A program made the translations under genes and the position numbers. Shown here piece after piece: positions 1-11,539 of a stretch of 26,040 bases of DNA. The first letter of the stretch is position 1. Each line of letters begins with the position of its first letter. Source of the DNA: Bacteroidia bacterium (lineage in GTDB: Bacteria > Planctomycetota > Phycisphaerae > Phycisphaerales > SM1A02); contig JASGCG010000001.1 of NCBI GenBank assembly GCA_030054235.1, forward strand, positions 1 through 26,040. Reading direction: 5' to 3'. Under the pieces are notes generated by a model. It was not told the origin of the DNA. It saw only the letters and a program-made list of their open reading frames with translations, and made no database searches.

Positions 1-669
1 CGTCTCCTCGAGCTTGAGCCATGGGAACTTGAGCAGCACCCAGTAGCAGACCGTGACGAAGGTGCAGAAGCAGAAGACGCCCTGGAAGAAGTCGGTGACG
101 AGCACCGCCAGCATGCCGCCGGCGAAGACCATGAAGACCGCGAACGCCAGCAGCGCGCCCATCACCGCCGGGAAGGTCTCGATCGCCATGCCGGCGACCG
201 TGAACTCGGCCGGCAGGCCGAGCATGGCGATGAAGAACCGCGCCGTGACGCCGGGGAAGATCGCGTAGTTCAGGATGCCGCTCACGAAGGCGACCACGCC
301 GCTGAAGACGCGGAAGCGCTTGGAATAGCGCATCTCGAAGAACTGCGCGAGGGTCATCGCGCGCGTCTCGCGGAACCGGTAGATGACCCAGCCGGTGATC
401 GCCAGCAGGATCAGCGACGGGCCCTCGAGGTAGCCCCACCAGTACTGCGTGAAGCCCACGTCGTACCCGAGCTGGAAGTACCAGACCAACGTGATCACGC
501 CGACCTGCGCCATGTTGTACGAGACAGTGAGCAGGTAGCGGCCGGCGAGCCGGTTCGCGCTCAGGAAGCCGCTGACGCTGCGCGCATGTTCACGCATGCT
601 CCACGCCGAGAGCGCCAGCGCCGCGACGAACCCGATGACGATGAGCCAGTCGACGGTCGCGAGCGTCAT
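1..669 (-). CDS. Sodium:solute symporter (SSS) family transporter, N-terminal part; runs off window edge
   Basis: Not in the ORF track (no stop inside window). Manual translation from ATG 669: MTLATVDWLIVIGFVAALALSAWSMREHARSVSGFLSANRLAGRYLL...YRFRETRAMTLAQFFEMRYSKRFR...GGMLAVLVTDFFQG. The 'D-W-x-I', 'FL.A.R', 'T..QF.E.RY' and 'GG..AV..TD..Q' motifs are typical of SSS transporters; multiple hydrophobic helices. Confidence 0.9.
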   Translation of the reverse strand, partial: MTLATVDWLIVIGFVAALALSAWSMREHARSVSGFLSANRLAGRYLLTVSYNMAQVGVITLVWYFQLGYDVGFTQYWWGYLEGPSLILLAITGWVIYRFRETRAMTLAQFFEMRYSKRFRVFSGVVAFVSGILNYAIFPGVTARFFIAMLGLPAEFTVAGMAIETFPAVMGALLAFAVFMVFAGGMLAVLVTDFFQGVFCFCTFVTVCYWVLLKFPWLKLEET

Positions 670-678
670 GCAGCCATG

Positions 679-3600
679 CTAACGACGCCCCGCCCGGCGG
701 ATCCGCAGCGAGGCGATCTCGAAGGCGCGCAGTCCGAGCCACCAGCCATCGCGGTCCGTGCACGGCGCGAGCCTCGAACGCGCGAGCGGTGCCTCGAAGA
801 AGTCGCAGCGCACCACGTCGTCATGCGGCATCGACGGCGACACCAGCACCTGCCGCGGGGCGCCAGAGTGATCGACCACGCGCACCACGACATCGCCGCT
901 TCCATCGGACGCGGGCTTCATCGCGCTCACCTCGAGCAAGCCGTCGCCGAAGGCGAGGATCCCGACCGGATGCATGCCCGCAGCGGCAGCACCGGCGCGA
1001 CCCGTCGACACCGTGATGGGCGGATTGTTGAACCACTCGGCCTGCACGGAAACCGACGAGGCATCCTGCCCGACCGGCAGGATCGCGTACTCGAACTCGT
1101 GCACGCCGCGGTCGCACGTGGGGTCGGGGAAGTTGGGACTCTTGACCAGCGTCAGGCCCATGGAGCCGAGCTTGCCGCTCTTGCCGAAGATGCCATCGTC
1201 GAGGATCGCCACACCGTCTTGGCCATCATGGATGAGCATCCAGTCGTGGCCGGGCACTTCGAACTGCGCTGCCTGCCAACTCGTGTTGTCGTGCGCGTCG
1301 CGGTCGATCCAGCCGCACTGCGTGCCGAAGCGCACCGTCCGGCTGCGGAGCGCCGTGGGGAAGAGCGCTCGCAGCACCGTGCGTTCCTCGCACCAGTCGA
1401 GCCGGGTATGGATGCGCAGGTACGACTCGCCGGGGCGCAGGCTGCAGGTCTGCACGATGCGGCTCGCACGGCCGAGCGCGCGCTCGATGCGCAGCATGGG
1501 CACGCCACCACGCACGATCGGCGTGATCGTCGGGCGCCCGGTGATCGGGATCGGCTTCTCGGCATGCTCACGGTCGGTATCCCACGCTTCCCAGCGACGC
1601 GGCCGATCCTCGTAGAGGGCCAGCTCGTTGAGGCCGTGGCCATCGCGAGCGGTGCAGGAGATGCCGTCGCGCTCGATCCAGCTCACGCGGCCTTGCGCAT
1701 CGAACTCCGCAACGTCGTGGCCGAGCGCGAGCGTGGTCCGCGTGGCCTTGGCGCGAGCGGGCTTCGGGCGACGCACGGTCGACACGCCGCACTCGGGGAT
1801 CTCCTGCAGGCGAGGCTCATCTATGCCGGCGGGTCCGGCCGGTTCGAGCTCGATCGCGGTGCTCGCCGGATTGAAGACGACCTCGCCGGCGGCAGGAACG
1901 CGCGCGCGGATGCGGGCGAGGCCATCGTCACGCAGGGCCTCGAGCCGCTTGAGCGCCGCACCCATGGCGATGCGCGCATCGTCGTACACGGCCTTGATGC
2001 TCGAACCCGGCAGGATGTCGTGGAACTGGTGCAGCAGCACGGTCTTCCAGAGTCCGTCGAGCTCGGCGAGCAGCGCGCGCTCCTCGGCGCGGGGCATCGG
2101 CGCGATCACGGCAAGCATCTCGACCTGGCGCAGCAGGCGCTCGCCACGCCGGTTCGCCCGCTTGATCCAGCGCTGGCTGGTGTAGGTGCCGCGGTGCGCT
2201 TCGAGGTAGAGCTCGCCGTCCCAGACCGGCAGCGGCTCGCCCCGGCGCTCGCTCGCGCGCGCCTGCCGGTGCAACTCGCCGCACAGGTCCCCTGCCTTCA
2301 TCGGCTCGCACGCTGGAAGCCCCTGCGATCGCCGCGCATTCGCCGCACGCTCGATCTGCGACGGATCGGGCCCGCCGCCGCCATCGCCCCAGCCGTACGG
2401 CTGCAGGTAGGCGCGCACACGCCCTCGATCCTGGCGCTCGATGTTGCGCGCGCCCGCCACGAGATCGTTCGGGAGGAACTCGCTGTTGTAGTTGTGGCCC
2501 GGCGTGAAGTGGCTGAGCACCTCGGTGCCGTCGAGCCCGCGCCATCGGAACGTCACATGCGGGAAGCGGTTGGTACCGCTCCAGATCATCTTGTTGGTGA
2601 TGAAGGTATCGAGCCCCGCAAGCGCGATGATCTGCGGCAGGCACGCAGGGAATCCGAACGTGTCGGGCAGGTAGAGGAACCGCTGCGGTGCGGCGGCCCC
2701 GAACTGCTCGCGCCACCAGCCGGTGCCATGCACGATCTGGCGGATGAAGCTCTCGCCGCTCGGGCACGTGCCGTCGGGCTCGATCCACATGGCGCCGTTG
2801 GGCTCCCAGCGTCCAGCCTTCACGGCCTTGCGGACCTGGTCGAACAGCGCGGGGCTCTCCTCCTGCACCATGCGGTACTGCGCCGCCTGACTGCAGAGGA
2901 ACGTGAAGCCCGGGAAACGCTCGATCGATCGAAGCGCCGTCGCGAAGGTGCGCACGCACTTGCGACGCGTCTCGTCGATCCTCCAGAGCCAGGCCGTGTC
3001 GATGTGTGCGTGACCGATCGGCACGCACGTGATGGCATGCAGCGGATCGGCAGAACCCTTCAGCAGCGCCTCGAGCGCCGGTGCCTGGGCCAGCACCACC
3101 GATCGCGAGATGGTCGCTGCGGGGATCGCACGCACGATGGCACCCAGGCCGCTGCGCAGGTCATTGGTGCGCGGGTCCTCGGCGCTCCCGTTCCACAGGC
3201 AGCGGCGCAGGAGATCGAAGCGCTCGGCGAACTGCCACAGGCCTTCGTCAAGCACGACGAGCTCGGCGCACTCGAGCCGCCCGGGCTTGCGCTCGCTCCA
3301 GCGCGCACGGACCTCGGGCTGGTCCCACCAGAACGTCGTCGCCCCCAGCGGGAGATTGCACGCGGCTTCGATCCACAGGTCGACACGCTGGCCCGCACGG
3401 CCGCGAGCACGGTCGTTCCACACGAGCGGTGCGATCGGTGCGGTGTCGTGGTACGGATCGAGGCCCGCGTGCGGCACGCCGTCGACCCAGACGCACGCCT
3501 CGGTGCCGCTGGAAAAGCGCAGGAGCACACGCTCGCCGGCAAAGTCGCGCGGCATCGTCCCCTGCACGCGGAACCAAGCGGTCGACCAGATCGGGCCCCA

Positions 3601-3780
3601 CCGGTAGCCCGGTTCGACCCTGGTCCGACGGGCGCGCTGCGCCACGTTCGGCGCCACACGCTCGGCGAAGTGGGCGACCTCGACGCGCAACGCCTCGCGA
3701 CGGGGCGCGGCGAGCGGGCGGAGGAGATCGTTGCAGAACTCCTCGAAGCGGATGGCATCCATCTGGTGGTCGGGCAGCAC
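679..3780 (-). CDS. Glycoside hydrolase family 38 alpha-mannosidase
   Basis: GHAHIDTAW (Zn-binding HxD), WEPNGAMW, PDTFG (nucleophile Asp), ELYLEAHRGTYTSQ, QFHDILPGSSI, QFEVPGHDW, CDRGVHEFEY. Start moved from the ORF-track 3819 to GTG 3780 because TACGCT lies exactly 6 nt upstream; ATG 3762 is an alternative. Confidence 0.95.
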   Translation of the reverse strand: MLPDHQMDAIRFEEFCNDLLRPLAAPRREALRVEVAHFAERVAPNVAQRARRTRVEPGYRWGPIWSTAWFRVQGTMPRDFAGERVLLRFSSGTEACVWVDGVPHAGLDPYHDTAPIAPLVWNDRARGRAGQRVDLWIEAACNLPLGATTFWWDQPEVRARWSERKPGRLECAELVVLDEGLWQFAERFDLLRRCLWNGSAEDPRTNDLRSGLGAIVRAIPAATISRSVVLAQAPALEALLKGSADPLHAITCVPIGHAHIDTAWLWRIDETRRKCVRTFATALRSIERFPGFTFLCSQAAQYRMVQEESPALFDQVRKAVKAGRWEPNGAMWIEPDGTCPSGESFIRQIVHGTGWWREQFGAAAPQRFLYLPDTFGFPACLPQIIALAGLDTFITNKMIWSGTNRFPHVTFRWRGLDGTEVLSHFTPGHNYNSEFLPNDLVAGARNIERQDRGRVRAYLQPYGWGDGGGGPDPSQIERAANARRSQGLPACEPMKAGDLCGELHRQARASERRGEPLPVWDGELYLEAHRGTYTSQRWIKRANRRGERLLRQVEMLAVIAPMPRAEERALLAELDGLWKTVLLHQFHDILPGSSIKAVYDDARIAMGAALKRLEALRDDGLARIRARVPAAGEVVFNPASTAIELEPAGPAGIDEPRLQEIPECGVSTVRRPKPARAKATRTTLALGHDVAEFDAQGRVSWIERDGISCTARDGHGLNELALYEDRPRRWEAWDTDREHAEKPIPITGRPTITPIVRGGVPMLRIERALGRASRIVQTCSLRPGESYLRIHTRLDWCEERTVLRALFPTALRSRTVRFGTQCGWIDRDAHDNTSWQAAQFEVPGHDWMLIHDGQDGVAILDDGIFGKSGKLGSMGLTLVKSPNFPDPTCDRGVHEFEYAILPVGQDASSVSVQAEWFNNPPITVSTGRAGAAAAGMHPVGILAFGDGLLEVSAMKPASDGSGDVVVRVVDHSGAPRQVLVSPSMPHDDVVRCDFFEAPLARSRLAPCTDRDGWWLGLRAFEIASLRIRRAGRR

Positions 3781-3823
3781 GCAGGCAGCGTACGGTGCAG
3801 TCGCGTGGCACACCATCACGACA

Positions 3824-3849
3824 GCGCCCCGCCGGCGAGGGCGGGGCGC
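3824..3849. terminator. Perfect 10-bp GC hairpin between DUF481 gene and mannosidase; possible terminator or mRNA stabiliser
   Basis: GCGCCCCGCC (3824-3833), 6-nt loop, GGCGGGGCGC (3840-3849); 26 nt past the DUF481 stop on the minus strand; no clear U-tract. Confidence 0.45.
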
Positions 3850-3875
3850 GGATCGACGAAGGCCGGAGGCCGGGC

Positions 3876-4784
3876 TCAGAAGTTGAACTGGATGCCGGCG
3901 TAGTACCGGAGCTCGTTCTTCGCCGTGCCGTCGGTCGCGCTCGAGTTGTACTCGTCACGGACGCCAGCGATGAACGAGAGGTTGTCGGTGTTGGGGATGT
4001 CCCAGATGAAGTCGGCGTACACGTTGATGAAGTAGAACTCCTGGAAGTTCGCGACGTCGGGCACGTACTGGCCGCCGAACTTCACGCGCTGCTCGTCATT
4101 GATCGTCCACAGGCCTTCGAACGAGGCCAGGAAGCTCGGATACCAGCGATCGCTCGTCCCTTCTTCACGCGTGGCACCGAAACCGATGCGGGGCGTGAGT
4201 TCGAGCGGCTTCTCGGTGTAGAGCCGGTAGCCGACCCCGCCGAAGATGCTGTAGCGCTGCTTCCACGACTGGAACTCGTCGTACTCGAACTGCGCCTTCT
4301 CGAAGATCGTCCAGCGGCTCTCGCCGAGGTCACGCTCGAGGATCTGCGTGGCGAGCGCGTTGTTGTCCTGCGCCTCGCCGTTGTTGGATCGGTAGTACCA
4401 CTGCGCATCGACCTGGAAGAGCCAGCCGTCTTCCTTGTAGAGCGTGCCGCCCGCGAGCCGCACGTCCAGGGTGTCGTTGGTCGACTGCACGCCCGAGACC
4501 GAGGCGTTCACGTAGGACTTCCAGGGCGAGGCCGGTGCCGGCGGTGCGATCGCCTTCACCTCGGTGAACTGGTCGGGTCGAAGCGCGATGTCGCCCAGCA
4601 CCGGGTGCTTGAGCACGATGCCGTTGGCATCCTGCTTGGTGACTTCGCCCTTGAGGGTCTCTCCGTTGGAGAGCTTCACCTCGGACTGCGGGGGCGTGGG
4701 CTGGGCCTGCACCAGGGCAAGCGCATCGGCGAAGGCGAGGGGTGCTGCGAGCAAGGCAGCCAAGAGCGCAAGGCAACGAGTCAT
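3876..4784 (-). CDS. DUF481/YdiY-like outer-membrane beta-barrel protein
   Basis: Signal peptide MTRCLALLAALLAAPLAFA with GGAG SD upstream of ATG 4784; N-terminal 'V.L.NG..L.G.V' module; alternating aromatic beta-strands (WTIFEKAQFEYDEFQ, FGGVGYRL); C-terminal YYAGIQFNF with terminal Phe. Confidence 0.8.
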   Translation of the reverse strand: MTRCLALLAALLAAPLAFADALALVQAQPTPPQSEVKLSNGETLKGEVTKQDANGIVLKHPVLGDIALRPDQFTEVKAIAPPAPASPWKSYVNASVSGVQSTNDTLDVRLAGGTLYKEDGWLFQVDAQWYYRSNNGEAQDNNALATQILERDLGESRWTIFEKAQFEYDEFQSWKQRYSIFGGVGYRLYTEKPLELTPRIGFGATREEGTSDRWYPSFLASFEGLWTINDEQRVKFGGQYVPDVANFQEFYFINVYADFIWDIPNTDNLSFIAGVRDEYNSSATDGTAKNELRYYAGIQFNF

Positions 4785-4852
4785 GCTGGGTCTCCGGTCG
4801 ATCAGGCGGGTTTCTGCGGCAGCCGACCGTGGCGGAAGTCCGATGGCGATCC

Positions 4853-4880
4853 TTGCCTTCGGGGGGCGGCACCATACACT
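4853..4880 (+). promoter_or_regulatory. Sigma70-type promoter for the Cys-rich ORF/efflux operon; predicted leaderless start
   Basis: TTGCCT (4853-4858), 16-nt spacer, TACACT (4875-4880), 6 nt, GTG 4887. Confidence 0.6.
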
Positions 4881-4886
4881 CACTCC

Positions 4887-5300
4887 GTGCGAGGCGTGAC
4901 CGTCCATCTGCTCGCGATGTGGATCGCGATGTGCTGCTGCCAGTGGCGCGCTGTCGGCGCTGCCATGGGCCTGCAGTCGATCCCGTCATGCTGCGCGCCG
5001 ACAGAGCCGGTCGATCCCTGCTGCGATAACTGCTGCACGGGTCCGGACGAGCGCAGTGAAGACGAACGACCGCCGGCCGACTCCAACCGGTGCGCCGGCT
5101 GCTGCGACAAGGGCCTTGCCCCATCCGCCGACGACCTGCCGTCGTCGCTCTTCGACCTCCACCTCGATCACCTCGGCACCCTGCTGCTTCATGTGCCGAG
5201 CATCGCCCTGCCATCGATCGATCGATCGATCGAACATGGCACCGTGTGGCACCCGCCGCCGGGCCGATTCCGGCCGCTGGTCTGCATCCTGACCGTGTGA
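4887..5300 (+). CDS. Small Cys-rich exported/membrane protein (137 aa), DUF2946/CutF-like putative regulatory uORF
   Basis: 3' end of ORF-track 3081..5300. Hydrophobic N-terminus, 13 Cys (CCC, CC, CCxxCC, CxxCC, terminal C), His cluster LHLDHL, C-terminal WHPPPGRFRPLVCILTV. Promoter upstream; efflux operon 75 nt downstream. Confidence 0.7.
   Translation: MRGVTVHLLAMWIAMCCCQWRAVGAAMGLQSIPSCCAPTEPVDPCCDNCCTGPDERSEDERPPADSNRCAGCCDKGLAPSADDLPSSLFDLHLDHLGTLLLHVPSIALPSIDRSIEHGTVWHPPPGRFRPLVCILTV
5213..5232. repeat. Tetranucleotide tandem repeat (ATCG)5 inside the Cys-rich ORF
   Basis: ccATCGATCGATCGATCGATCGaa, encoding P-SIDRSI-E; longest such run seen in the window. Confidence 0.95.
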
Positions 5301-5308
5301 CGTGACGC

Positions 5309-5373
5309 TGATCGTTGCCGCACCCCTCATCGGGTCCGCGGTGCTTTCTCGCATCCATCATCACCAAGGATCA
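5309..5373 (+). promoter_or_regulatory. Putative SD-sequestering stem-loop upstream of the TolC-like gene
   Basis: TGATCGTTG (5309-5317) is complementary to CAAGGATCA (5365-5373) at 8/9 positions and covers the SD AAGGA (5366-5370). Inner GCACC (5320-5324)/GGTGC (5340-5344) pair. Folding energy not computed. Confidence 0.4.
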
Positions 5374-5375
5374 CC

Positions 5376-6743
5376 ATGCCGAAGCCCCTGTTTCGGGCTG
5401 CCGCCGCTCTCCTGGCCTTCGTTCTGGCCGCCTTCCTGGCCGCAGCCTGCACCTCGACCGACCATCACGACGCATCGCGCGACACGCTTGAGAGGGATCT
5501 CGCACGCGCTGCGCTCGATGGCGGCGCGAACCCGCTCCCCGCTCCCGCCGGCGCACCACCGACCGACCGCGCCCTGACGGCCGACGCCGCCGTGGCGGCC
5601 GCACTCTCCAGCAATCCATCCTTCCGCGCCGATGTGCTCGCCGCGCACGAGGCTGCTCTCGCGGTCGATGCCGTGGCGCTCGGCCCCACGCCGATGGTCA
5701 TGCTCGAGATCGGCGTGCCCCTCACCGACACGGCCACCGTACCGATCCTGGCACTGCTCACCGCATCGCTGACCGATCTCGTCACTCGCGGCGATCGGAT
5801 GGAGATCGCCAGCCTGCGGGCCCAGGCCATGCATCTGTCAGCCATCGATGCTGCAACGATGCTCTCGGCCTCGGTGCGCGAGCGCCATGCGATGGCCTGG
5901 CGTGCGCAGGAGTCCCTGCACCTGGCAGAGGCTCGCTTCGCTCTCGCCCAGACCGAGGCCGATCGCGAGAGCGCGCTCGCCTCGAAGGGCCTTGCATCCG
6001 TCCGCCGTGACCAGGCCGGTGCGGCGATGCTGGCTTCCGCGCGTGCTCAACTCGAGCAGGCGCGGTCCGCGCACACCACGGCGGTGCGCGCACTCGCCGC
6101 CGCGATGGGTTGTGCCCGGCAGGATGTCGAGTGGGCCGTGGCTCGTCCGGAACTGCCGCCATGGCCGGACGCCGGCCTGATCGGCAACAGTGCCGTGACA
6201 CCCGCGGCCCGCATGGCCGTTGCACTCGCGGCCGCGACGCGCATCGAGGCCGAGCTCGTCCGCTCGGGGTTGACGCAGAACGCCAACCTCGGCACCGGCT
6301 ACATGCAGGACGAAGAAGACATGAAGGCGATCCCCATCGTGCTGCAGTTCGCGCTGCCGATCGGTGCCGAGGGCGCCACGCGTGAACAACGCGCCGCGCT
6401 CATGGACGAGTCGGCAGCGCTTCGTGCCGAGGCAGCTCTGCAACAGGCGCATGTCCGGCTCGCCGATGCGCTCGACCGCGAGTCATCCGCCCGCGTGGCG
6501 GCCGAGGCGCTCGAGCGCACCACGCTCGCCGCCGCGCGGACCCAGCATGAACGGCTGCGCACGCTCGCCCAGCGCGGTGCGGCTACCACCAAGGAGCGCG
6601 ACCAGGTGCGCATGGCCTGCCTCGATGCCGAGAGCGAGGCAGTCATGGCGCATGCCAACGCCTGCATCGCCGCCGCCGAGCGGGTCGCCGCCAGTGCGGG
6701 GCTTGACCTGGCGCAGGACGGCGGGCGGAGGGCCGAGCGATGA
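5376..6743 (+). CDS. TolC/CusC-like outer membrane efflux factor, lipoprotein
   Basis: Lipobox LAAAC, long Ala/Glu-rich coiled helices, duplicated architecture, beta-strand segment ANLGTGY...IVLQFALPI; AAGGA SD; directly upstream of adaptor gene with ATGA overlap. Confidence 0.85.
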   Translation: MPKPLFRAAAALLAFVLAAFLAAACTSTDHHDASRDTLERDLARAALDGGANPLPAPAGAPPTDRALTADAAVAAALSSNPSFRADVLAAHEAALAVDAVALGPTPMVMLEIGVPLTDTATVPILALLTASLTDLVTRGDRMEIASLRAQAMHLSAIDAATMLSASVRERHAMAWRAQESLHLAEARFALAQTEADRESALASKGLASVRRDQAGAAMLASARAQLEQARSAHTTAVRALAAAMGCARQDVEWAVARPELPPWPDAGLIGNSAVTPAARMAVALAAATRIEAELVRSGLTQNANLGTGYMQDEEDMKAIPIVLQFALPIGAEGATREQRAALMDESAALRAEAALQQAHVRLADALDRESSARVAAEALERTTLAAARTQHERLRTLAQRGAATTKERDQVRMACLDAESEAVMAHANACIAAAERVAASAGLDLAQDGGRRAER

Positions 6744-7933
6744 CCGACCCGATCACCACATCGACGCAGGAGCCGAGCATGATGCAGCCCACCATGATTC
6801 CACCGCCAAACCGACGCGCAACGCGACTCTTCGCCTTCGGCGTCTGGAGTGGCGCGATCGCCGGCGCCTTCGCGCTCATCGTGTTCTGGTTCGGCCGGCC
6901 GCAGCCGGTCGCCATCACGCGGGCCGTGGCGCGCGAACTCGGTTCGTCCTTCGCTGGCAGCATCGTGCAGGCGCCGGGCTGGATCGAGGCTCGCCCCTAC
7001 GCCACCCTGGTCCCGGGCCTCGTCGATGGCACGGTCACCTCGGTCAGGGCGATCGAGGGCGATGCCGTGAAGGCCGGACAGGTGCTCGCCACGATCGATG
7101 CGCGGCCCTTCGAGGAAGCCGAGCAGCAGACAGCGGGCGCTTATGCGATGGCGCGGGCCGAGACCGTGCAGGCACGCCTGCAGCACACGCTTGCGGACGC
7201 GCGACTCAGCGTCGGCGAGGCCGCGCAGGTCGACGTCGACCTGGCGGCAGCGCAACTCGCACGTGCCGAGGGCGCGGAACTCATGGCGCGGGGCGCCTGG
7301 GAACGTGCCGCACTCGACGTCGAACGCTGCAGCGTGATCGCACCGGTCGATGGCGTGATCTTCGAGCGCCGCGTCGAGCCGGGCGAGCGCATCGGGAGCG
7401 ACATGGAGAACGAAGGTGCCATGTTCGCGCTCTTCGATCCCGCCATGGTGCAAGTGCGCTGCGACGTACCGCTCGCCGATGCCGGCAGCGTGCTTCCTGG
7501 CCAGCTCGCCGAAGTCACGGTCGATGCCTTCAAGGGGCGGACCTTCCGCGGCACGGTGCTCGTGGGTGGTTTCAGGGCCGACATCGCAAAGAACACGCTG
7601 CAGGTCAAGATCGGCCTCGATGATGCCGACGGCCTGCTGCGCCCGGACACGCTCACGCGCGTGCGGATCATGGTGCCGGGTTCGAGCGCCGGCTCAGCAC
7701 GCACGCAGGTGGTGGTGCCTGCCGACTGGGTCGTACGCGATGGCTCACGCTCCACCGTCCTGGTGATGGATGCCGGCTTCCTGCGCCGCGTCGACCTCGG
7801 CGAGGCCACCGACACGGGCGATGGGTGGATCATCGCCGCAGACGGGATCCGCCCAGGCGAGGTGCTCGTGCATCCATCGCATGCCGCGCTGCCTGACGGC
7901 ACGCGCATCGCTCCCAAGGAGGAAACGCCATGA
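6740..7933 (+). CDS. Periplasmic adaptor (membrane fusion protein, HlyD/MacA-like)
   Basis: Single N-terminal TM; lipoyl half-motifs 'VDGTVTSVRAIEGDAVKAGQVLA' and 'VIAPVDGVIFERRVEPGE' flanking a coiled hairpin; ATGA overlaps on both sides. Confidence 0.92.
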   Translation: MTDPITTSTQEPSMMQPTMIPPPNRRATRLFAFGVWSGAIAGAFALIVFWFGRPQPVAITRAVARELGSSFAGSIVQAPGWIEARPYATLVPGLVDGTVTSVRAIEGDAVKAGQVLATIDARPFEEAEQQTAGAYAMARAETVQARLQHTLADARLSVGEAAQVDVDLAAAQLARAEGAELMARGAWERAALDVERCSVIAPVDGVIFERRVEPGERIGSDMENEGAMFALFDPAMVQVRCDVPLADAGSVLPGQLAEVTVDAFKGRTFRGTVLVGGFRADIAKNTLQVKIGLDDADGLLRPDTLTRVRIMVPGSSAGSARTQVVVPADWVVRDGSRSTVLVMDAGFLRRVDLGEATDTGDGWIIAADGIRPGEVLVHPSHAALPDGTRIAPKEETP

Positions 7934-8616
7934 GCCTCATCGAGTGCCGATCGCTTTGCAAGGATTACCAGCGCGGCGGTGAGGCCGTGCACGTCCTCGA
8001 CCGACTCGACCTGTCGATCGATCGCGGGTCCTACACCGCGCTCATGGGTCCAAGCGGCAGCGGCAAGACCACGCTGCTCAACCTTCTCGCGGGCATCGAC
8101 CGAGCCAGCTCGGGCGAGCTGCTCGTGGACGGGACGGATCTGGCGCAACTCGACCGCAACCAGCTCGCGCTCTGGCGATCGCGCCACGTGGGCTACGTGT
8201 TCCAGCTCTACAACCTCGTTCCCGTGCTCTCGGCGTACGAGAACGTCGAACTTCCGCTGCTGCTGCACGACCTCACCGCCGCCGAGCGGCACCGACGCGT
8301 CGTCGAGGCGCTCGAGTCCGTCGACCTGGCGACCCGCCATGGTCACCTGCCCCGCCAACTCTCAGGCGGCCAGGAACAGCGCGTCGCGATCGCCCGCGCG
8401 CTGGTGACGCAACCCACGCTGCTGCTGGCCGATGAACCGACAGGCGATCTCGACCGCACCAACGCCGATGCGGTCATGGACCTCTTCGGCCGGCTCCATC
8501 GCGAGCGTGGCCAGACGATCGTCATGGTCACGCATGACGAGGCCATCGCCCGGCGCGCAGAGCGCACCGTCCGCCTCGAAAAGGGCCGGCTCGCCACCGT
8601 GGAGGTGGCACGATGA
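7930..8616 (+). CDS. ABC transporter ATP-binding protein, MacB/LolD-type
   Basis: Walker A GPSGSGKTT, Q-loop GYVFQLYNL, signature LSGGQEQRVAIARAL, Walker B LLLADEPTGDLD, H-loop VTHD; AAGGAGG SD. Confidence 0.97.
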   Translation: MSLIECRSLCKDYQRGGEAVHVLDRLDLSIDRGSYTALMGPSGSGKTTLLNLLAGIDRASSGELLVDGTDLAQLDRNQLALWRSRHVGYVFQLYNLVPVLSAYENVELPLLLHDLTAAERHRRVVEALESVDLATRHGHLPRQLSGGQEQRVAIARALVTQPTLLLADEPTGDLDRTNADAVMDLFGRLHRERGQTIVMVTHDEAIARRAERTVRLEKGRLATVEVAR

Positions 8617-9767
8617 GCGCACTCCTGAGCAGGATCCGCTACGCGCTTCGCAGCGCGCGCCGCCAGCGATTTCGCACCGTGGCCTTGGTCGCCGGTGTCG
8701 CCCTGACCACGTCGCTCGCCGCGGCGATCGCGTGCATCGATCTTGGCGTGCGCGACGCCACGACCACTCGCGCGGGCGAGACACGGCTGATCGTGTACCG
8801 CGAGAACCGGTTCTGTCCCTTCGCGAGCGCGCTGCCGCAGCGGTACGACCGCCAGATCGCCGAGCTGCCCGGCGTGGCGGCCGTCATGCCCGTGAAGATC
8901 GTCGTCTCCAATTGCCGCGCCTCGCTTGATGTGGTGACCTTCCGTGGTGTGCCGGTCGATGACCTGCGCGCGATGGCGCCCCGACTTGCAGCCGGCTCGA
9001 TCGACGCTTGGGCCGGCCACGGCAATGGCGCCTTGGTCGGGCGCGAACTCGCGGCTCGGCGCGGCCTGCGCGTGGGGTCATCCCTGACGGCCGCGGGCAT
9101 CGATGTCGTGGTCGATGGCATCCTCGAGAGCGATGATCCGCAGTGGCGCAACAGCGCGCTCACGCACCTGGCCTACCTGCAGGAGCGGGCCGCGCGCGGG
9201 GGAACTGGCGGCATCGTGACGCAGTTCGACGTGACCGTGAGCGACCCAGCGCGGCTCGAGGACGTGGCGCGGACCATCGACGAACGGTTCAAGGCGGACG
9301 AGGCCCCCACCGCGACTCGCCCGCAGACGGCGTTCGTGGCCCGCGCCGCGCGTGATGTGGTCGCGCTCGCAGGCTTCAGTTCGATCATCGGCATCGGTGC
9401 GGTGCTCGCTGCCTTCGGCCTCCTCGCCACGACGATGGTCAACGTCACGCGGCATCGCTCGCGCGAGTTCGCGGTCCTGCGCACGTTGGGCTTCACCGAC
9501 GGCGGCATCAGCGCCATCGTGCTTGCCGAGGGCGCACTCGTCGGCGGGCTCGGGGGCCTTCTGGGCGCGGGCCTGGCCTGGTTCGGGCTCGCGCGTGCCG
9601 GACTGGCGTTCACCATGGAAGGCGTCTCGATCACGCCGCGGCTGGATCCTGCGATCTTCATCGTTGCCGCTGCGGTGGCGCTTGCGGCAGGACTGCTGGC
9701 CACGGCGATTCCAGCATGGTCGGCGTCGCGCGCGCGGCTGGTCGATCTCCTGCGGGGTGCATCATGA
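8613..9767 (+). CDS. ABC transporter permease 1, FtsX/MacB-like
   Basis: One N-terminal TM, periplasmic domain with 'GALVGRELAARRGLRVG', C-terminal three-TM FtsX domain with 'RSREFAVLRTLGFT'; ATGA overlaps. Confidence 0.93.
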   Translation: MSALLSRIRYALRSARRQRFRTVALVAGVALTTSLAAAIACIDLGVRDATTTRAGETRLIVYRENRFCPFASALPQRYDRQIAELPGVAAVMPVKIVVSNCRASLDVVTFRGVPVDDLRAMAPRLAAGSIDAWAGHGNGALVGRELAARRGLRVGSSLTAAGIDVVVDGILESDDPQWRNSALTHLAYLQERAARGGTGGIVTQFDVTVSDPARLEDVARTIDERFKADEAPTATRPQTAFVARAARDVVALAGFSSIIGIGAVLAAFGLLATTMVNVTRHRSREFAVLRTLGFTDGGISAIVLAEGALVGGLGGLLGAGLAWFGLARAGLAFTMEGVSITPRLDPAIFIVAAAVALAAGLLATAIPAWSASRARLVDLLRGAS

Positions 9768-10927
9768 CGATGCTCCCGATGGAGTACTCGCTGCGCGGGC
9801 TCACGCGTGGGCGCGGGCGGACCGTGCTCGCACTCATGGGATCGTTGGTGGCGGGCGCGCTCATCGCGACGGCATCGGCGTTCCTGGGCGGCATGGAGTC
9901 AGCGCTTGGATCGACGGCCTCGCCTTCGCGCGTGATCGTCATGGGTGCAGGCAGCGAGGAATCGCTCGAGCGCAGCGAGATCGGCGCGCGTGTGCCGGGC
10001 GTGCTGTCGGCGAGCGTGCAGGGCATACGACGGACGGCAGGCATGGAGCACGTGAGCGCCGAGACGCACGTGGCGCTGCCGATCGCCGTGGATGGCGCCG
10101 AGGCCGCGAGCGACAACGGTCTGGTGCGCGGCGTCGGTCCGGCAGCGCTCCTGGTCCACCCCAACGTGCAGCTCACCGGCGGGCGCTGGCCCGAACGCGG
10201 CGCCGGCGAAGTGCTGGTCGGTTCGAGCGCCATGCGCAGGCTCGGCGTGGATCCAGCGGCTGCCATCGGCAGTCGTGTCGTGCTGGCCGGCGCACCGCTC
10301 ACGATCGTGGGCACCATGCAGGCGCCGGGATCGACGATCGACGGCGAGTGGTGGATGCCGCTGGAAGACCTCACCACGCTGATGCGGCGCGAGACGATCT
10401 CGTGCGTGATCGTCGACCTCGACCGCGCGACGATCGGCGACGTGCAAGCCTTCACGCTCTCGCGGCTCGATCTTGAGCTCGCCGTCCTGGCCGAACGCGA
10501 CTACTACGCGTCGCTGCTTGCGTTCTTCGCACCGGTGCGTGTGCTCGTGGCGGTCGTGGCCACGCTCATGGCGCTCGCCGCCGCGCTCGGCGGCGCGAGC
10601 GCACTGGCCGCTGCCTTCAGTGAGCGCGTGCGCGAGAACGCGGTGCTGGAAACGCTCGGGTACCCGCGCCATGCGGTCATCCTCGATGTCCTCCTGCAGT
10701 GCACGATCGTGGCGGTCAGCGGTGCCGCTGTCGGCGGCCTGCTGGCGCAGTGGCTCTTCGGCGGCATGCTTGTCGAGTTCAGCATGGGCACGTTCGCCTT
10801 GCAGTTCGATGCACGTGCCACGCTCCTGGCCGCCGTGACGGGTTTCGTCGTCGCGATCGTCGCGGCCTTCCTCAGCACCTGGCGCTGGATCGGGCTGCCG
10901 ACGCCCGAGGCGCTGCGGACGACATGA
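9764..10927 (+). CDS. ABC transporter permease 2, FtsX/MacB-like
   Basis: Start at ATG 9764 (ATGA overlap with permease 1 stop): MTMLPMEYSLRGLTRGRGRT; 'GRWPERGAGEVLVG'; FtsX motif 'ERVRENAVLETLGY'. Confidence 0.92.
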   Translation: MTMLPMEYSLRGLTRGRGRTVLALMGSLVAGALIATASAFLGGMESALGSTASPSRVIVMGAGSEESLERSEIGARVPGVLSASVQGIRRTAGMEHVSAETHVALPIAVDGAEAASDNGLVRGVGPAALLVHPNVQLTGGRWPERGAGEVLVGSSAMRRLGVDPAAAIGSRVVLAGAPLTIVGTMQAPGSTIDGEWWMPLEDLTTLMRRETISCVIVDLDRATIGDVQAFTLSRLDLELAVLAERDYYASLLAFFAPVRVLVAVVATLMALAAALGGASALAAAFSERVRENAVLETLGYPRHAVILDVLLQCTIVAVSGAAVGGLLAQWLFGGMLVEFSMGTFALQFDARATLLAAVTGFVVAIVAAFLSTWRWIGLPTPEALRTT

Positions 10928-10963: not shown

Positions 10964-11539
10964 ATGCATCGACTCAACGCACTCATGCTCGCCTCCTCCG
11001 TCCTCTTCCTTGCAGCCTGCGGTGGCCAGAGTGGCGACCATGACCACAGCCACACGCGGCACGGACATGACCACGCCGCACCCACCGCGCCTGCAGCTCC
11101 CGAGGGCACATTCCCTGCAGCGCTCTTCTCCGGCGACCCAGCGGCGGAGCCAGTCGGCGTGGGGGCCATGAAGGCATCGGCCAAGCAAGGCGACCGCGTG
11201 ATCGTGGTTGGTCGCATCGGTGGCAGCAAGGATCCCTTCCTCGCTGACCGGGCCATGGTCACGATCGTCGATCCGAGCGTGAAACTCTGCGGCGAGGACG
11301 AGCCCGGCGATGACCACTGCGCGACCCCGTGGGACTTCTGTTGCGAGCCGCGCGAGAACCTGCGCAGGATGTCGATCGCGGTCGTGGCGAACGGAGCCGA
11401 CGGTGCACCCATTCCCCACACGCTGCTCGGCCAAGGAGGGCTCAAGCCCGGCGCGCGCGTGGTCGTCGAGGGCACCGTCGCGACGGTCGGCCCGGACGGC
11501 GCCGCGATGCTCGTGGCCGAGCGCATCGTGGCCCGGTGA
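10964..11539 (+). CDS. His/Cys-rich lipoprotein of unknown function, probable OB-fold metal-binding protein
   Basis: Lipobox LAAC; DHDHSHTRHGHDH; C-x9-C-x-TPWDFCC; beta-rich 'GDRVIVVGRIGG' and 'GARVVVEGTV' segments; AAGGA SD. Confidence 0.8.
   Translation: MHRLNALMLASSVLFLAACGGQSGDHDHSHTRHGHDHAAPTAPAAPEGTFPAALFSGDPAAEPVGVGAMKASAKQGDRVIVVGRIGGSKDPFLADRAMVTIVDPSVKLCGEDEPGDDHCATPWDFCCEPRENLRRMSIAVVANGADGAPIPHTLLGQGGLKPGARVVVEGTVATVGPDGAAMLVAERIVAR

What the first reader, a model, noticed from the sequence alone, without database searches (positions are those of the whole stretch)
4887..5376. Putative metal-sensing ribosome-stalling uORF plus SD-hiding stem (CutF/CruR-like logic in a new context)
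Seen: a 137-aa ORF with an N-terminal hydrophobic export segment, 13 Cys, HPPPG (PPP at 5253-5261) 12 residues before the stop, and a 75-nt spacer in which TGATCGTTG (5309-5317) can pair with CAAGGATCA (5365-5373), covering the AAGGA SD of the TolC gene. Established: Rhodobacter CutF and Bordetella CruR (DUF2946-type) are exported Cys/Pro-rich leader proteins that control downstream translation in response to copper via stalling and SD accessibility. Inference: the same mechanism operates here. A ribosome at or near the stop (5298-5300), with PPP in the exit tunnel, would reach the left stem arm. The motif is not the canonical RAPP, so this may be a new arrest-peptide class.
Basis: partly seen in the sequence, partly recalled or inferred. 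Interest (0 to 1): 0.85.

Follow-up and report, generated by a model that had tools for sequence, protein, structure and literature searches.

The report
Cysteine-rich leader gene gating efflux pump

Summary
The ORF 4887-5300 is a real gene. Its GC3 is 0.82. It has homologues at 43-99% identity and more distant relatives, all "hypothetical" proteins from Planctomycetota/Phycisphaerales MAGs. In every locus that extends far enough downstream it precedes an OMF(TolC-like)-MFP-MacB-type ABC operon.

The 13 Cys, the HPPPG motif and the 75-nt spacer are as described.

A different SD-hiding structure is well supported. AUCCU (5286-5290, Ile134-Leu135 codons) pairs with the SD AGGAU (5367-5371) at the base of one long hairpin that includes the Val-stop codons. 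It has 84.5% of cells paired against 31-47% in slid controls, and 10 compensatory pairs. The same topology recurs with unrelated sequence in distant clades.

Across 29 divergent members only CCC, CxxC and PP are invariant. The CxxC-to-PPP spacing is 48 +/- 2 aa, a ruler like CruR's.

Pfam DUF2946 does not match, and hhalign is not significant.

PPP lies 12-21 codons before the stop, against 2 in CutF. A ribosome arrested at PPP cannot open the stem; one at the stop can. A conserved promoter predicts a leaderless mRNA.

Verdict: a new variant of the CutF-like kind. Regulation and metal sensing are inferred, not shown.

The parts
4853..4880 (+). Promoter-like TTGCCT (4853-4858), 16-nt spacer, TACACT (4875-4880), ending 6 nt before the GTG start. 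It predicts a leaderless mRNA.
   Evidence: The same two hexamers stand at the same distance from the start codon in all 13 loci compared, with a perfect TATAAT in L004. There is no SD before 4887. Metatranscriptome contigs start at 4896 and 4901, and four runs show no coverage over 4815-4895. The simple consensus scan missed it, at 8 of 12 matches.
4887..5300 (+). Leader gene, 137 aa: Sec-type signal (aa 1-~25) containing an invariant CCC, an acidic Cys-rich middle, the CxxCC motif, PPP, and a basic/hydrophobic tail.
   Evidence: AF2 pLDDT is 62, with only helix 1-26 confident.
4932..4940 (+). Codons of Cys16-Cys17-Cys18, at the end of the 15-16 residue hydrophobic h-region.
   Evidence: Invariant in all 29 family members. 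The h-region length is constant and is followed by a small-x-small site 4-8 (mostly 6) residues later.
5091..5105 (+). Codons of C69-A-G-C72-C73, the CxxC(C) motif followed by x-K.
   Evidence: C69 and C72 are invariant in 29 members. The distance to PPP has median 48 aa, sd 2.0.
5253..5261 (+). PPP codons (P123-P125) within the invariant G[TS]VWHPPP[GD]R.
   Evidence: P123 and P124 are invariant in 29 members. A modelled ribosome here leaves SD pairing unchanged in 15 loci.
5286..5290 (+). Anti-SD AUCCU (codons Ile134-Leu135).
   Evidence: It pairs with AGGAU in the independent MFE fold of all 14 distinct close-family sequences. The pair is invariant, so it offers no covariation.
5279..5380 (+). 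Long imperfect hairpin. The 5' arm is the last codons, GUGUGA (Val-stop) and the first half of the spacer. The 3' arm is the second half of the spacer, the SD and part of the start codon.
   Evidence: The window copy is the weakest (dG -31.7, z=-0.59). Relatives score z from -1.6 to -5.5.
5310..5348 (+). Apical part of the hairpin, the best-covarying helix.
   Evidence: 91% of cells paired against 34-51% in slid controls, with 5 pairs carrying compensatory changes.
5366..5371 (+). Shine-Dalgarno AAGGAU of the OMF gene.
   Evidence: Mean unpaired probability is 0.25 for free mRNA, 0.31 with a ribosome at PPP and 0.61 with a ribosome at the stop.
5376..6743 (+). TolC-like outer-membrane factor (OEP), with a lipobox.
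   Evidence: PF02321, E=6.6e-8; translation.
6740..7933 (+). Periplasmic adaptor (MFP).
   Evidence: HlyD_D23 and HlyD_3. TIGR01730 scores 127 bits, above its cut-off; CzcB/NccB is second but below its cut-off.
7930..8616 (+). ABC ATPase of the LolD/MacB/DevA type.
8613..9767 (+). MacB_PCD/FtsX permease 1.
9764..10927 (+). MacB_PCD/FtsX permease 2 (ATGA overlap with permease 1).
   Evidence: the length matches L001.
10964..11539 (+). Lipoprotein with a His-rich N-terminus and conserved Cys; last conserved gene of the cluster.
   Evidence: synteny.

Best explanation
The ORF is the first cistron of a leaderless operon mRNA that also encodes an OMF-MFP-MacB-type ABC efflux pump and a His-rich lipoprotein. 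It encodes a Sec-exported, cysteine-rich leader protein that acts in cis, in the manner of CutF/CruR.

Shown here:
- The gene is real and conserved.
- Its last codons, its stop codon and the spacer form one long conserved hairpin that buries the SD of the OMF gene.
- The only residues invariant across the wider family are CCC, CxxC and PP, and the CxxC-to-PPP distance is held at about 48 aa.

Inferred:
- OMF translation requires a ribosome to translate the leader to its last about 5 codons, which melts the anti-SD.
- PPP is an EF-P-sensitive arrest point. At that point the CxxCC motif, 48 residues back, is just emerging on the periplasmic side of SecYEG, so its state (metal binding or thiol oxidation) can modulate arrest.
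- PPP lies at least 11 codons before the stop, with its third codon about 25 nt before the anti-SD. An arrested ribosome therefore leaves the SD masked (pump OFF), and release of the arrest lets ribosomes reach the stop and unmask it (pump ON). This is CruR-type sensing wired to a positive output, and it inverts the CutF geometry, where the arrested ribosome itself melts the stem.
For: Gene reality: GC3 is 0.82, and homologues and relatives were found.

Operon context: the same operon is found in close and distant clades. Metatranscriptome contigs bridge the ORF, spacer and OMF gene in 3 runs. A conserved promoter ends 6 nt before the start codon and there is no SD.

Hairpin: AUCCU:AGGAU pairs in 14/14 independent folds. 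The whole structure has 84.5% of cells paired against 31-47% in slid controls, 10/33 pairs with compensatory changes, and a covariation score of 0.228 against 0.03-0.06. Relatives score z from -1.6 to -5.5. Distant loci L039, L040, L042, L060, L061 and L038 rebuild the same topology from different sequence.

Geometry: a ribosome at the stop raises the SD unpaired probability by at least 0.2 in 10 of 15 loci. A ribosome at PPP changes it by at most 0.06 in 15 of 15.

Architecture: the n-, h- and c-regions fit a signal peptide. C16-18, C69, C72, P123 and P124 are the only invariant residues in 29 sequences. The CxxC-to-PPP spacing is 48 with sd 2.0, against sd 8 for CCC-to-PPP.

Precedents: CruR has CXXC 45 aa before RAPP (PMC9426467). 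CutF has PPP plus an SD-shielding stem-loop (PMC9973294; bioRxiv 10.1101/2025.02.05.636593). OEP genes are the commonest downstream neighbours of CutF-like genes (PMC9973294).

Other: EF-P is present in the genome. No confident globular fold is predicted.
Against: No arrest, metal response or even translation of the ORF has been observed; everything regulatory is inference.

The window's own hairpin is barely more stable than shuffles (z=-0.59).

The base helix AUCCU:AGGAU never varies, so it has no covariation support of its own. Ile-Leu with preferred codons and an SD could each be conserved for other reasons.

In 5 of 15 loci the equilibrium model re-masks the SD even with a ribosome at the stop.

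Homology to DUF2946 is not demonstrated, so the analogy rests on architecture.

The pump is ABC-type with an unknown substrate, and its metal link is weak: the MFP's CzcB hit is below cut-off, and the other clue is the His-rich lipoprotein.

A pause at PPP limits flux only if it is long-lived. With a weakly initiating leaderless GUG mRNA, a short pause would not regulate anything.
Confidence: 0.58

Rival explanations
1. Plain translational coupling plus a functional small protein. The leader is a stable exported metal-binding or pump-accessory protein, like CusF in cusCFBA. PPP is structural, and the hairpin only couples OMF translation stoichiometrically to leader translation without sensing anything.
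For: The hairpin and anti-SD geometry by itself needs no arrest. The protein's N-terminal region and its 20-residue C-terminus are invariant in the close family, as expected for an interaction surface. The fixed 48-aa spacing could reflect a small folded domain. The other operon genes look like a complete pump plus a lipoprotein.
Against: AF2 finds no confident fold beyond the N-terminal helix (pLDDT 54-65). Across the wider family almost everything diverges except CCC, CxxC and PP, which is the hallmark pattern of the regulatory DUF2946 proteins (PMC9426467). The first-gene position on a leaderless mRNA and the CutF-like rule set are all met (PMC9973294).
Confidence: 0.27
2. Arrest at or next to the stop codon with PPP deep in the exit tunnel. 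The invariant 20-residue C-terminus is a termination or late-elongation arrest peptide of TnaC/SpeFL/SecM style. The ribosome parked on the last codons holds the anti-SD open, so arrest means ON.
For: A ribosome at the stop is the position that unmasks the SD. The last 20 residues are invariant in the close family. Every locus whose stop codon was read uses UGA except L061, which uses UAA.
Against: The conserved ruler runs from CxxC to PPP (sd 2.0). The PPP-to-stop tail varies from 11 to 21 residues and its sequence is not conserved between clades. That places the fixed point at PPP, not at the stop. UGA is the expected stop in GC-rich genomes. The terminal residues are also constrained at the RNA level by the anti-SD.
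Confidence: 0.1
3. The reader's specific switch, in which 5309-5317 pairs with 5365-5373 to hide the SD.
For: Both strings exist and 8 of 9 positions can pair.
Against: There is a central G.G mismatch. The stem is not in the MFE or centroid structure. It has 65.6% of cells paired, no covariation, and is absent in the L005 clade. Positions 5310-5312 covary with 5346-5348 instead.
Confidence: 0.03
4. The small Cys-rich product is a secreted peptide or RiPP-like cargo of the MacB-type exporter, or the spacer is a CruR-like Rho-dependent attenuator.
For: The ABC ATPase resembles the DevA, DarD and bacteriocin exporter ATPases. CruR acts through Rho (PMC9426467).
Against: There is no modifying enzyme in the conserved cluster. 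A Sec-type signal makes ABC export unnecessary. The spacer is short (54-90 nt), highly structured and bridged by RNA contigs, and it has no terminator-like site.
Confidence: 0.04

Closest known systems
CutF of Rhodobacter capsulatus (cutFOG; DUF2946/CutF-like family)
   Same: [quoted passage not shown] A stem-loop between it and the next gene shields that gene's SD. P0001 passes the authors' rule set: under 150 aa, PP within the last 15 residues, a signal peptide, and a same-strand neighbour within 1 kb (PMC9973294; bioRxiv 10.1101/2025.02.05.636593).
   Different: CutF ends GPPPRL, with PPP 2 residues before the stop, so the arrested ribosome itself melts the stem. Here PPP is 12 residues (11-21 in the wider family) before the stop, the third Pro codon starts about 27 nt upstream of the anti-SD, and the anti-SD lies inside the ORF. 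No sequence homology was detected. There is an extra invariant CCC in the signal peptide. The target is an ABC-type efflux operon, not a multicopper oxidase. The mRNA is predicted to be leaderless.
CruR (Bp2923) of Bordetella pertussis, prototype of Pfam DUF2946
   Same: It has an export signal, an invariant CXXC, a Pro motif near the C-terminus, and a fixed CXXC-to-Pro-motif distance: 45 aa in CruR and 48 +/- 2 here. It is the first gene of its operon (PMC9426467).
   Different: CruR has RAPP 3 residues before the C-terminus, a 162-nt spacer, acts through Rho-dependent termination and controls an importer. Here the motif is HPPP, the structured spacer is 75 nt with a masked SD, and the target is an exporter. 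The Pfam model does not match.
CzcI / CusD / SilD-type CutF-like genes upstream of czcCBA- and cusCBA-type RND metal efflux operons
   Same: A small exported Cys/His protein sits directly upstream of the OEP gene of an OMF-MFP-pump operon. This is the most frequent context of CutF-like genes (PMC9973294).
   Different: Those pumps are RND; this one is MacB/FtsX-type ABC. CzcI lacks the Pro motif.
SecM-secA, and classical SD-masking translational coupling
   Same: An upstream exported ORF has a ribosome whose position decides whether a hairpin hiding the next gene's SD is open.
   Different: SecM monitors export and arrests right next to the stem. Here the candidate arrest site is upstream of the stem and carries a Cys-rich sensor domain.

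Membership tests
Pfam DUF2946 (PF11162; CruR/CutF family) | Match to the family HMM at or above the gathering score (23.7 bits) | tested here: not met
   There is no hit for P0001 at E<=0.1. The six-frame search of the whole own genome gives none at E<=10. Of 29 family members, one scores 13.1 bits, E=0.16. Bona fide DUF2946 genes are found in 23 of 401 genomes of the phylum by the same model.
Pfam DUF2946 (PF11162; CruR/CutF family) | Profile-profile similarity to DUF2946 sequences | tested here: inconclusive
   hhalign of 29 family sequences against 17 planctomycete DUF2946 proteins gives a collinear alignment (signal, CxxC, Pro motif), but Prob is 1.9% with P=0.009 (global) and 0.7% with P=0.076 (local).
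Pfam DUF2946 (PF11162; CruR/CutF family) | Conserved CXXC motif | tested here: met
   C69-x-x-C72 is invariant in 29 sequences.
Pfam DUF2946 (PF11162; CruR/CutF family) | RAPP (or R[AG]PP) motif about 3 residues before the C-terminus | tested here: not met
   The motif is HPPP followed by 12 residues here, and 11-21 in the wider family. Planctomycete DUF2946 proteins end R[AG]PP plus 2-8 residues.
Pfam DUF2946 (PF11162; CruR/CutF family) | Fixed spacing (about 45 aa, within 1-2) between CXXC and the Pro motif | tested here: met
   Median 48, sd 2.0, range 45-55 in 29 sequences, while the CCC-to-PPP distance varies from 96 to 129. The value differs from CruR's 45 by 3.
Pfam DUF2946 (PF11162; CruR/CutF family) | N-terminal export signal | tested here: met
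   There are 1-3 basic residues, a 15-16 residue hydrophobic core, and a small-x-small site 4-8 (mostly 6) residues later in all 29 members. AF2 predicts a helix at 1-26. This is by inspection only; no dedicated predictor was available.
CutF-like proteins (rule set of Ozturk et al. 2023, PMC9973294) | [quoted passage not shown] | tested here: met
   The protein is 137 aa. PPP at 123-125 is the first three of the last 15 residues. The signal is as above. The OMF gene starts 75 nt downstream. Distant members with 16-21 residue tails would fail the 15-residue rule.
CutF-like proteins (rule set of Ozturk et al. 2023, PMC9973294) | Stem-loop between the leader and the next gene that shields its SD | tested here: met
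CutF-like proteins (rule set of Ozturk et al. 2023, PMC9973294) | Arrest site placed so that the arrested ribosome melts the stem-loop | tested here: not met
   A modelled ribosome at PPP changes SD accessibility by at most 0.06 in 15 of 15 loci. The hairpin base (5279-5286) lies about 5-12 nt beyond the ribosome's modelled 3' edge.
CutF-like proteins (rule set of Ozturk et al. 2023, PMC9973294) | Iterative sequence-search (jackhmmer) link to CutF | not tested
Regulatory ribosome arrest peptides | Demonstrated sequence-dependent ribosome arrest that changes downstream expression in cis | not testable with these tools
   This needs toeprinting, Ribo-seq or reporters.
MacAB-TolC-type tripartite ABC efflux system (the regulated operon) | OMF, MFP, ABC ATPase and MacB_PCD/FtsX permease(s) encoded together | tested here: met
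   PF02321, HlyD_D23, ABC_tran and 2x MacB_PCD+FtsX; TIGR01730 above its cut-off. The same set is present in L001, L008, L009 and L060.

The most novel reading that the evidence does not exclude
This is a family of exported cysteine-rich arrest-peptide sensors with no detectable sequence relation to DUF2946. It is found in Planctomycetota/Phycisphaerales MAGs and in unassigned metagenome contigs, and it may be convergent. Its logic is inverted relative to CutF. The PPP arrest site is kept at least 11 codons upstream of an anti-SD encoded in the last codons, so arrest keeps an ABC-type tripartite efflux operon silent. Release of the arrest, triggered across the membrane by metal binding or thiol chemistry at a CxxCC motif held 48 residues from PPP, switches it on, all from a leaderless mRNA.
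Probability: 0.3. Interest if true: 0.75.

Novelty: new variant of a known kind. Interest (0 to 1): 0.6.

Why it matters
CutF and CruR are the only characterised cases in which a nascent exported peptide reports an extracytoplasmic metal to the ribosome. Their two prototypes work in opposite directions, and how the geometry sets the sign of the response is an open question.

This family supplies a third natural geometry: the arrest site is well upstream of an SD-masking stem whose 5' arm lies in the last codons. It also brings strong comparative support for the RNA structure, a conserved Cys-to-PPP ruler, a different pump class (MacB-type ABC instead of RND, MCO or TBDT), a predicted leaderless transcript, and a phylum where no such regulation has been described.

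The family is invisible to the Pfam model, so surveys based on DUF2946 undercount this mechanism. If the inverted logic holds, it shows that one sensor module can be rewired simply by moving the arrest site relative to the anti-SD.

Tried and rejected

3. RNAalifold on plain MAFFT alignments recovered only the apical and basal helices, because the 3' arm varies in length. A covariance-model realignment was needed.

4. DUF2946 membership was tested with hmmscan, a genome-wide HMM search and hhalign. It is not supported.

5. NCBIfam, Rfam and the protein atlas (nearest clusters unnamed) gave no name for the leader or the spacer.

6. The consensus promoter and terminator scan found nothing in the intergenic region. 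The promoter was seen only by comparing loci.

7. I compared with the geometry of 17 canonical planctomycete DUF2946 loci, modelling a ribosome at R[AG]PP against SD accessibility. The result was heterogeneous, and the downstream starts were called by a crude ORF rule, so no conclusion was drawn.

8. The population variant A5305G, seen in RNA contigs, looked as if it might strengthen the weak stem of the window, but the predicted dG is unchanged.

9. The AF2 model was too low in confidence (pLDDT 62) to justify fold searches.

10. The family profile found no second copy in the own genome. In 400 other genomes of the phylum it gave only two marginal hits.
Full report
**What is in the sequence.** The frame from GTG 4887 to TGA 5298-5300 encodes 137 residues with 13 Cys, HPPPG at residues 122-126 (PPP codons 5253-5261) and 12 residues after PPP. 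It lies in the 590-nt gap between a divergent DUF481 gene (3876-4784, minus strand) and a TolC-like OEP gene (5376-6743). That gene is followed by an MFP (6740-7933), an ABC ATPase (7930-8616), two MacB_PCD/FtsX permeases (8613-9767 and 9764-10927) and a 191-aa lipoprotein (10964-11539).

**It is a gene, not a chance frame.** GC3 is 0.82, as in the neighbouring genes, and falls to about 0.55 in the spacer. A word-indexed search found 11 homologues at 43-99% identity, all unnamed or "hypothetical", from Planctomycetes MAGs and freshwater metagenomes. In their alignment the N-terminal HLLAxWxAxCCCQW and the last 20 residues, G[TS]VWHPPP[GD]RxxPxxCILTV-stop, are invariant or nearly so. The homologues that begin with ATG begin at the position of the window's GTG. 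The genome is a 2.1-Mb MAG, 75% complete, with one copy. In 400 other sampled genomes of the phylum the profile found only two marginal hits.

**A wider family.** An exhaustive profile search and a second indexed search found more distant relatives, P0017-P0053, at 21-31% identity. Where sources name them, they are Phycisphaerales or Planctomycetes "hypothetical proteins" without Pfam domains. All share the same plan:
- 1-3 basic residues;
- a 15-16 residue hydrophobic core ending in CCC;
- a small-x-small site 4-8 (mostly 6) residues later, a typical Sec signal peptide by inspection;
- an acidic region with CC pairs;
- a CxxC(C)xK motif;
- a poorly conserved stretch;
- PPP;
- an 11-21 residue basic tail ending in hydrophobic residues.

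In a 29-sequence alignment the only invariant residues are C16, C17, C18, C69, C72, P123 and P124. The distance from the CxxC(C) motif to the first Pro has median 48, sd 2.0 and range 45-55. The CCC-to-PPP distance ranges from 96 to 129 with sd 8. AF2 with this alignment gives pLDDT 62, with only helix 1-26 near 80 and the rest low-confidence coil.

**Context is conserved.** In every locus with enough sequence, the small gene is followed after 54-90 nt by an OEP gene. Where the contig continues, the MFP, ABC ATPase, two FtsX permeases and the about 188-aa lipoprotein follow. This holds for clades that share only about 25% identity with the window protein (L040, L042, L060, L061).

TGATCGTTG and CAAGGATCA pair as 5 bp, a G.G mismatch and 3 bp. 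The stem is not in the MFE or centroid of 5290-5390, which folds no better than shuffles (z=+0.70). Across eight homologous loci only 65.6% of cells pair, there is no supporting covariation, and the L005/L006/L011 clade has lost the pairing. I reject it.

**The structure that is there.** When the last eight codons of the ORF are included, every locus folds on its own into one long imperfect hairpin.
- AUCCU (5286-5290, codons Ile134-Leu135) pairs with the SD AGGAU (5367-5371).
- GUGUGA (Val137 plus the stop, 5295-5300) and the first half of the spacer pair with the second half.
- UG at 5283-5284 pairs with CA at 5375-5376, the base before the start codon and its A.

In 14 distinct close-family sequences folded independently, AUCCU:AGGAU forms in 14 of 14 and GUGUGA is paired in 11-14 of 14. 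The wobble base of the Thr136 codon covaries with its partner (C:G, G:C, U:A).

After realignment with a covariance model, 84.5% of cells pair against 31-47% when partners are slid by 1-3 columns. Ten of 33 pairs carry compensatory changes, and the covariation score is 0.228 against 0.03-0.06. The apical helix (5310-5348) alone has 91% paired with 5 compensatory pairs. The alignment is fitted to the structure and the sequences fall into only a few lineages, so these figures overstate independence. The basal SD helix never varies and so has no covariation support of its own.

Independent support comes from distant clades. They rebuild the same topology from unrelated sequence, with a 5' arm on or directly after the stop codon and a 3' arm on the SD or start codon. 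Examples are GGCUC-AGGAU with GUCCU-GGAGCC in L039, and UGAACUC with GGAGUUCA in L040, where GCAUCU also pairs with AGAUGC over the AUG. The z-scores are -3.7 (L039), -5.5 (L040), -3.2 (L042), -4.7 (L060) and -1.9 (L061). The model built on the close family also hits the ORF end of the distant L038 (E=0.0017). The window's own copy is the weakest (dG -31.7, z=-0.59). Close relatives range from -1.6 to -4.1.

**Transcript.** Upstream of the start codon, all 13 loci compared carry TTGCC[TA] or a near variant, a 16-17 nt spacer, TAcAcT (TATAAT in L004), then 6 nt and the GTG/ATG. In the window these are 4853-4858 and 4875-4880. That spacing puts the predicted transcription start on the start codon itself. 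It fits the absence of an SD before 4887, whereas the OMF, ABC, permease-1 and lipoprotein genes all have one.

Contigs from four freshwater metatranscriptome runs cover both flanking genes but not 4815-4895. They start at 4896 and 4901, and in three runs they bridge the ORF, spacer and OMF gene (4896-6177, 5008-5574, 5241-6009). Contigs cannot prove a single transcript or exclude DNA carry-over, but the gap over the promoter region argues for RNA. There is no Rfam family and no terminator-like site in the region.

**Geometry and mechanism.** I modelled a ribosome as 28 unpaired nucleotides (-12 to +15 from the P site).
- On the last sense codon, it raises the mean unpaired probability of the SD region from 0.25 to 0.61 in the window. 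It raises it by at least 0.2 in 10 of 15 loci.
- With the third Pro codon in the P site, the change is at most 0.06 in all 15 loci.

The first nucleotide of the third Pro codon (5259) is 27 nt upstream of the anti-SD. Translation to the last about 5 codons is therefore what opens the SD, and a ribosome held at PPP leaves it closed.

In CutF the C-terminus is PEPEGPPPRL, so PPP is 2 residues before the stop and the arrested ribosome itself melts the stem (bioRxiv 10.1101/2025.02.05.636593). In CruR, RAPP is 3 residues before the end and CXXC lies 45 residues upstream, a spacing conserved to within 1-2 residues (PMC9426467).

Here the ruler is fixed to PPP, not to the stop. I therefore take PPP as the sensing and arrest point, reached when the CxxCC motif would be about one tunnel-plus-translocon length away. 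I propose that arrest keeps the pump off and that release lets ribosomes reach the stop and unmask the SD. This would be CruR-like, with the ligand relieving arrest. It would explain why the tail is never shorter than 11 codons. The model is inference.

The alternatives are arrest at the stop with PPP in the tunnel, or no arrest at all, with simple coupling and a functional small protein. Neither is excluded. EF-P is encoded in the genome.

**Is it metal?** The evidence is indirect:
- the cysteine content and the CxxC motif;
- a His-rich, Cys-containing lipoprotein conserved at the end of the cluster;
- an MFP whose second-best NCBIfam hit is CzcB/NccB, below its cut-off;
- published evidence that OEP genes of metal efflux systems are the commonest neighbours of CutF-like genes (PMC9973294).

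The pump is MacB-type ABC, not RND, and its substrate is unknown.

**Comparison with the known family.** Pfam DUF2946 does not match P0001 or anything in the own genome at E<=10. One of 29 relatives scores 13.1 bits. The same model does find bona fide DUF2946 genes (CxxC, then R[AG]PP plus 2-8 residues) in 23 of 401 genomes of the phylum, including the one other sampled genome of the same family-level group. hhalign between the two sets is collinear but not significant (Prob 1-2%, P=0.009-0.076).

By the rule set of Ozturk et al. (under 150 aa, PP in the last 15 residues, a signal peptide, a same-strand neighbour) the window protein qualifies as CutF-like, just; distant members with longer tails would not. 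I therefore file it as working like the CutF/CruR class, but not as a demonstrated member of DUF2946. It is a new variant of a known kind. A literature search found no description of this family.

I checked its sequence myself.

Noticed in passing
window 10964-11539 (+); L001 13099-13665; L008 6327-6887: The last conserved gene of the cluster encodes a lipoprotein (lipobox LAAC|G). It has a His-rich N-terminus and a conserved Cys-containing block (...LCGED...DDHC.TPWDFCCEPR...). There is no significant Pfam family, only a sub-threshold DUF5818 hit at E=0.004. It is a candidate periplasmic metal-binding partner of the pump.
   Followed up: partly
window 4853-4886: Conserved -35/-10-like hexamers end 6 nt before the start codon in all 13 loci compared, and there is no SD. 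This predicts a leaderless operon mRNA starting on a GTG (ATG in one of the 13 loci, L059).
   Followed up: partly
window 5376-5460: The TolC-like OMF has its own lipobox (LAAAC|TSTDHH), conserved in relatives, so it is probably a lipoprotein-type outer-membrane factor.
   Followed up: no
window 9716-9770: The second permease probably starts at 9764 (ATGA overlap with the stop of the first), not at the longer ORF start 9716. This gives 387 aa, as in L001.
   Followed up: partly
window 586-3903 (+) / 679-3819 (-): The 1105-aa plus-strand ORF has no Pfam hit. Synteny with L001 and L004 (a GH38 alpha-mannosidase of about 1040 aa on the minus strand) suggests the real gene is the minus-strand ORF and the plus-strand one is a GC-rich shadow frame.
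   Followed up: no
window 4842-4886: Gene callers gave the 99%-identical relative (P0004) a 15-residue N-terminal extension from an upstream ATG. In the window that ATG (4842) is out of frame, next to a G-run (4861-4866) that lies in the promoter spacer. The extension is probably an annotation artefact.
   Followed up: partly
window 5305: A>G is the base in metatranscriptome contigs of two runs and in locus L044. It does not change the predicted hairpin energy in the window background.
   Followed up: yes
L060 1-2815: In a distant member's locus, an HMA-domain P-type ATPase and an Rrf2-type regulator lie within 8 kb upstream of the leader-OMF-MFP-ABC operon.
   Followed up: no
L015-L036 (other genomes of the phylum): Canonical DUF2946 genes (His/Cys-rich, CxxC, R[AG]PP plus 2-8 residues) are present in 23 of 401 sampled Planctomycetota genomes. 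Their downstream contexts and spacers look heterogeneous.
   Followed up: partly
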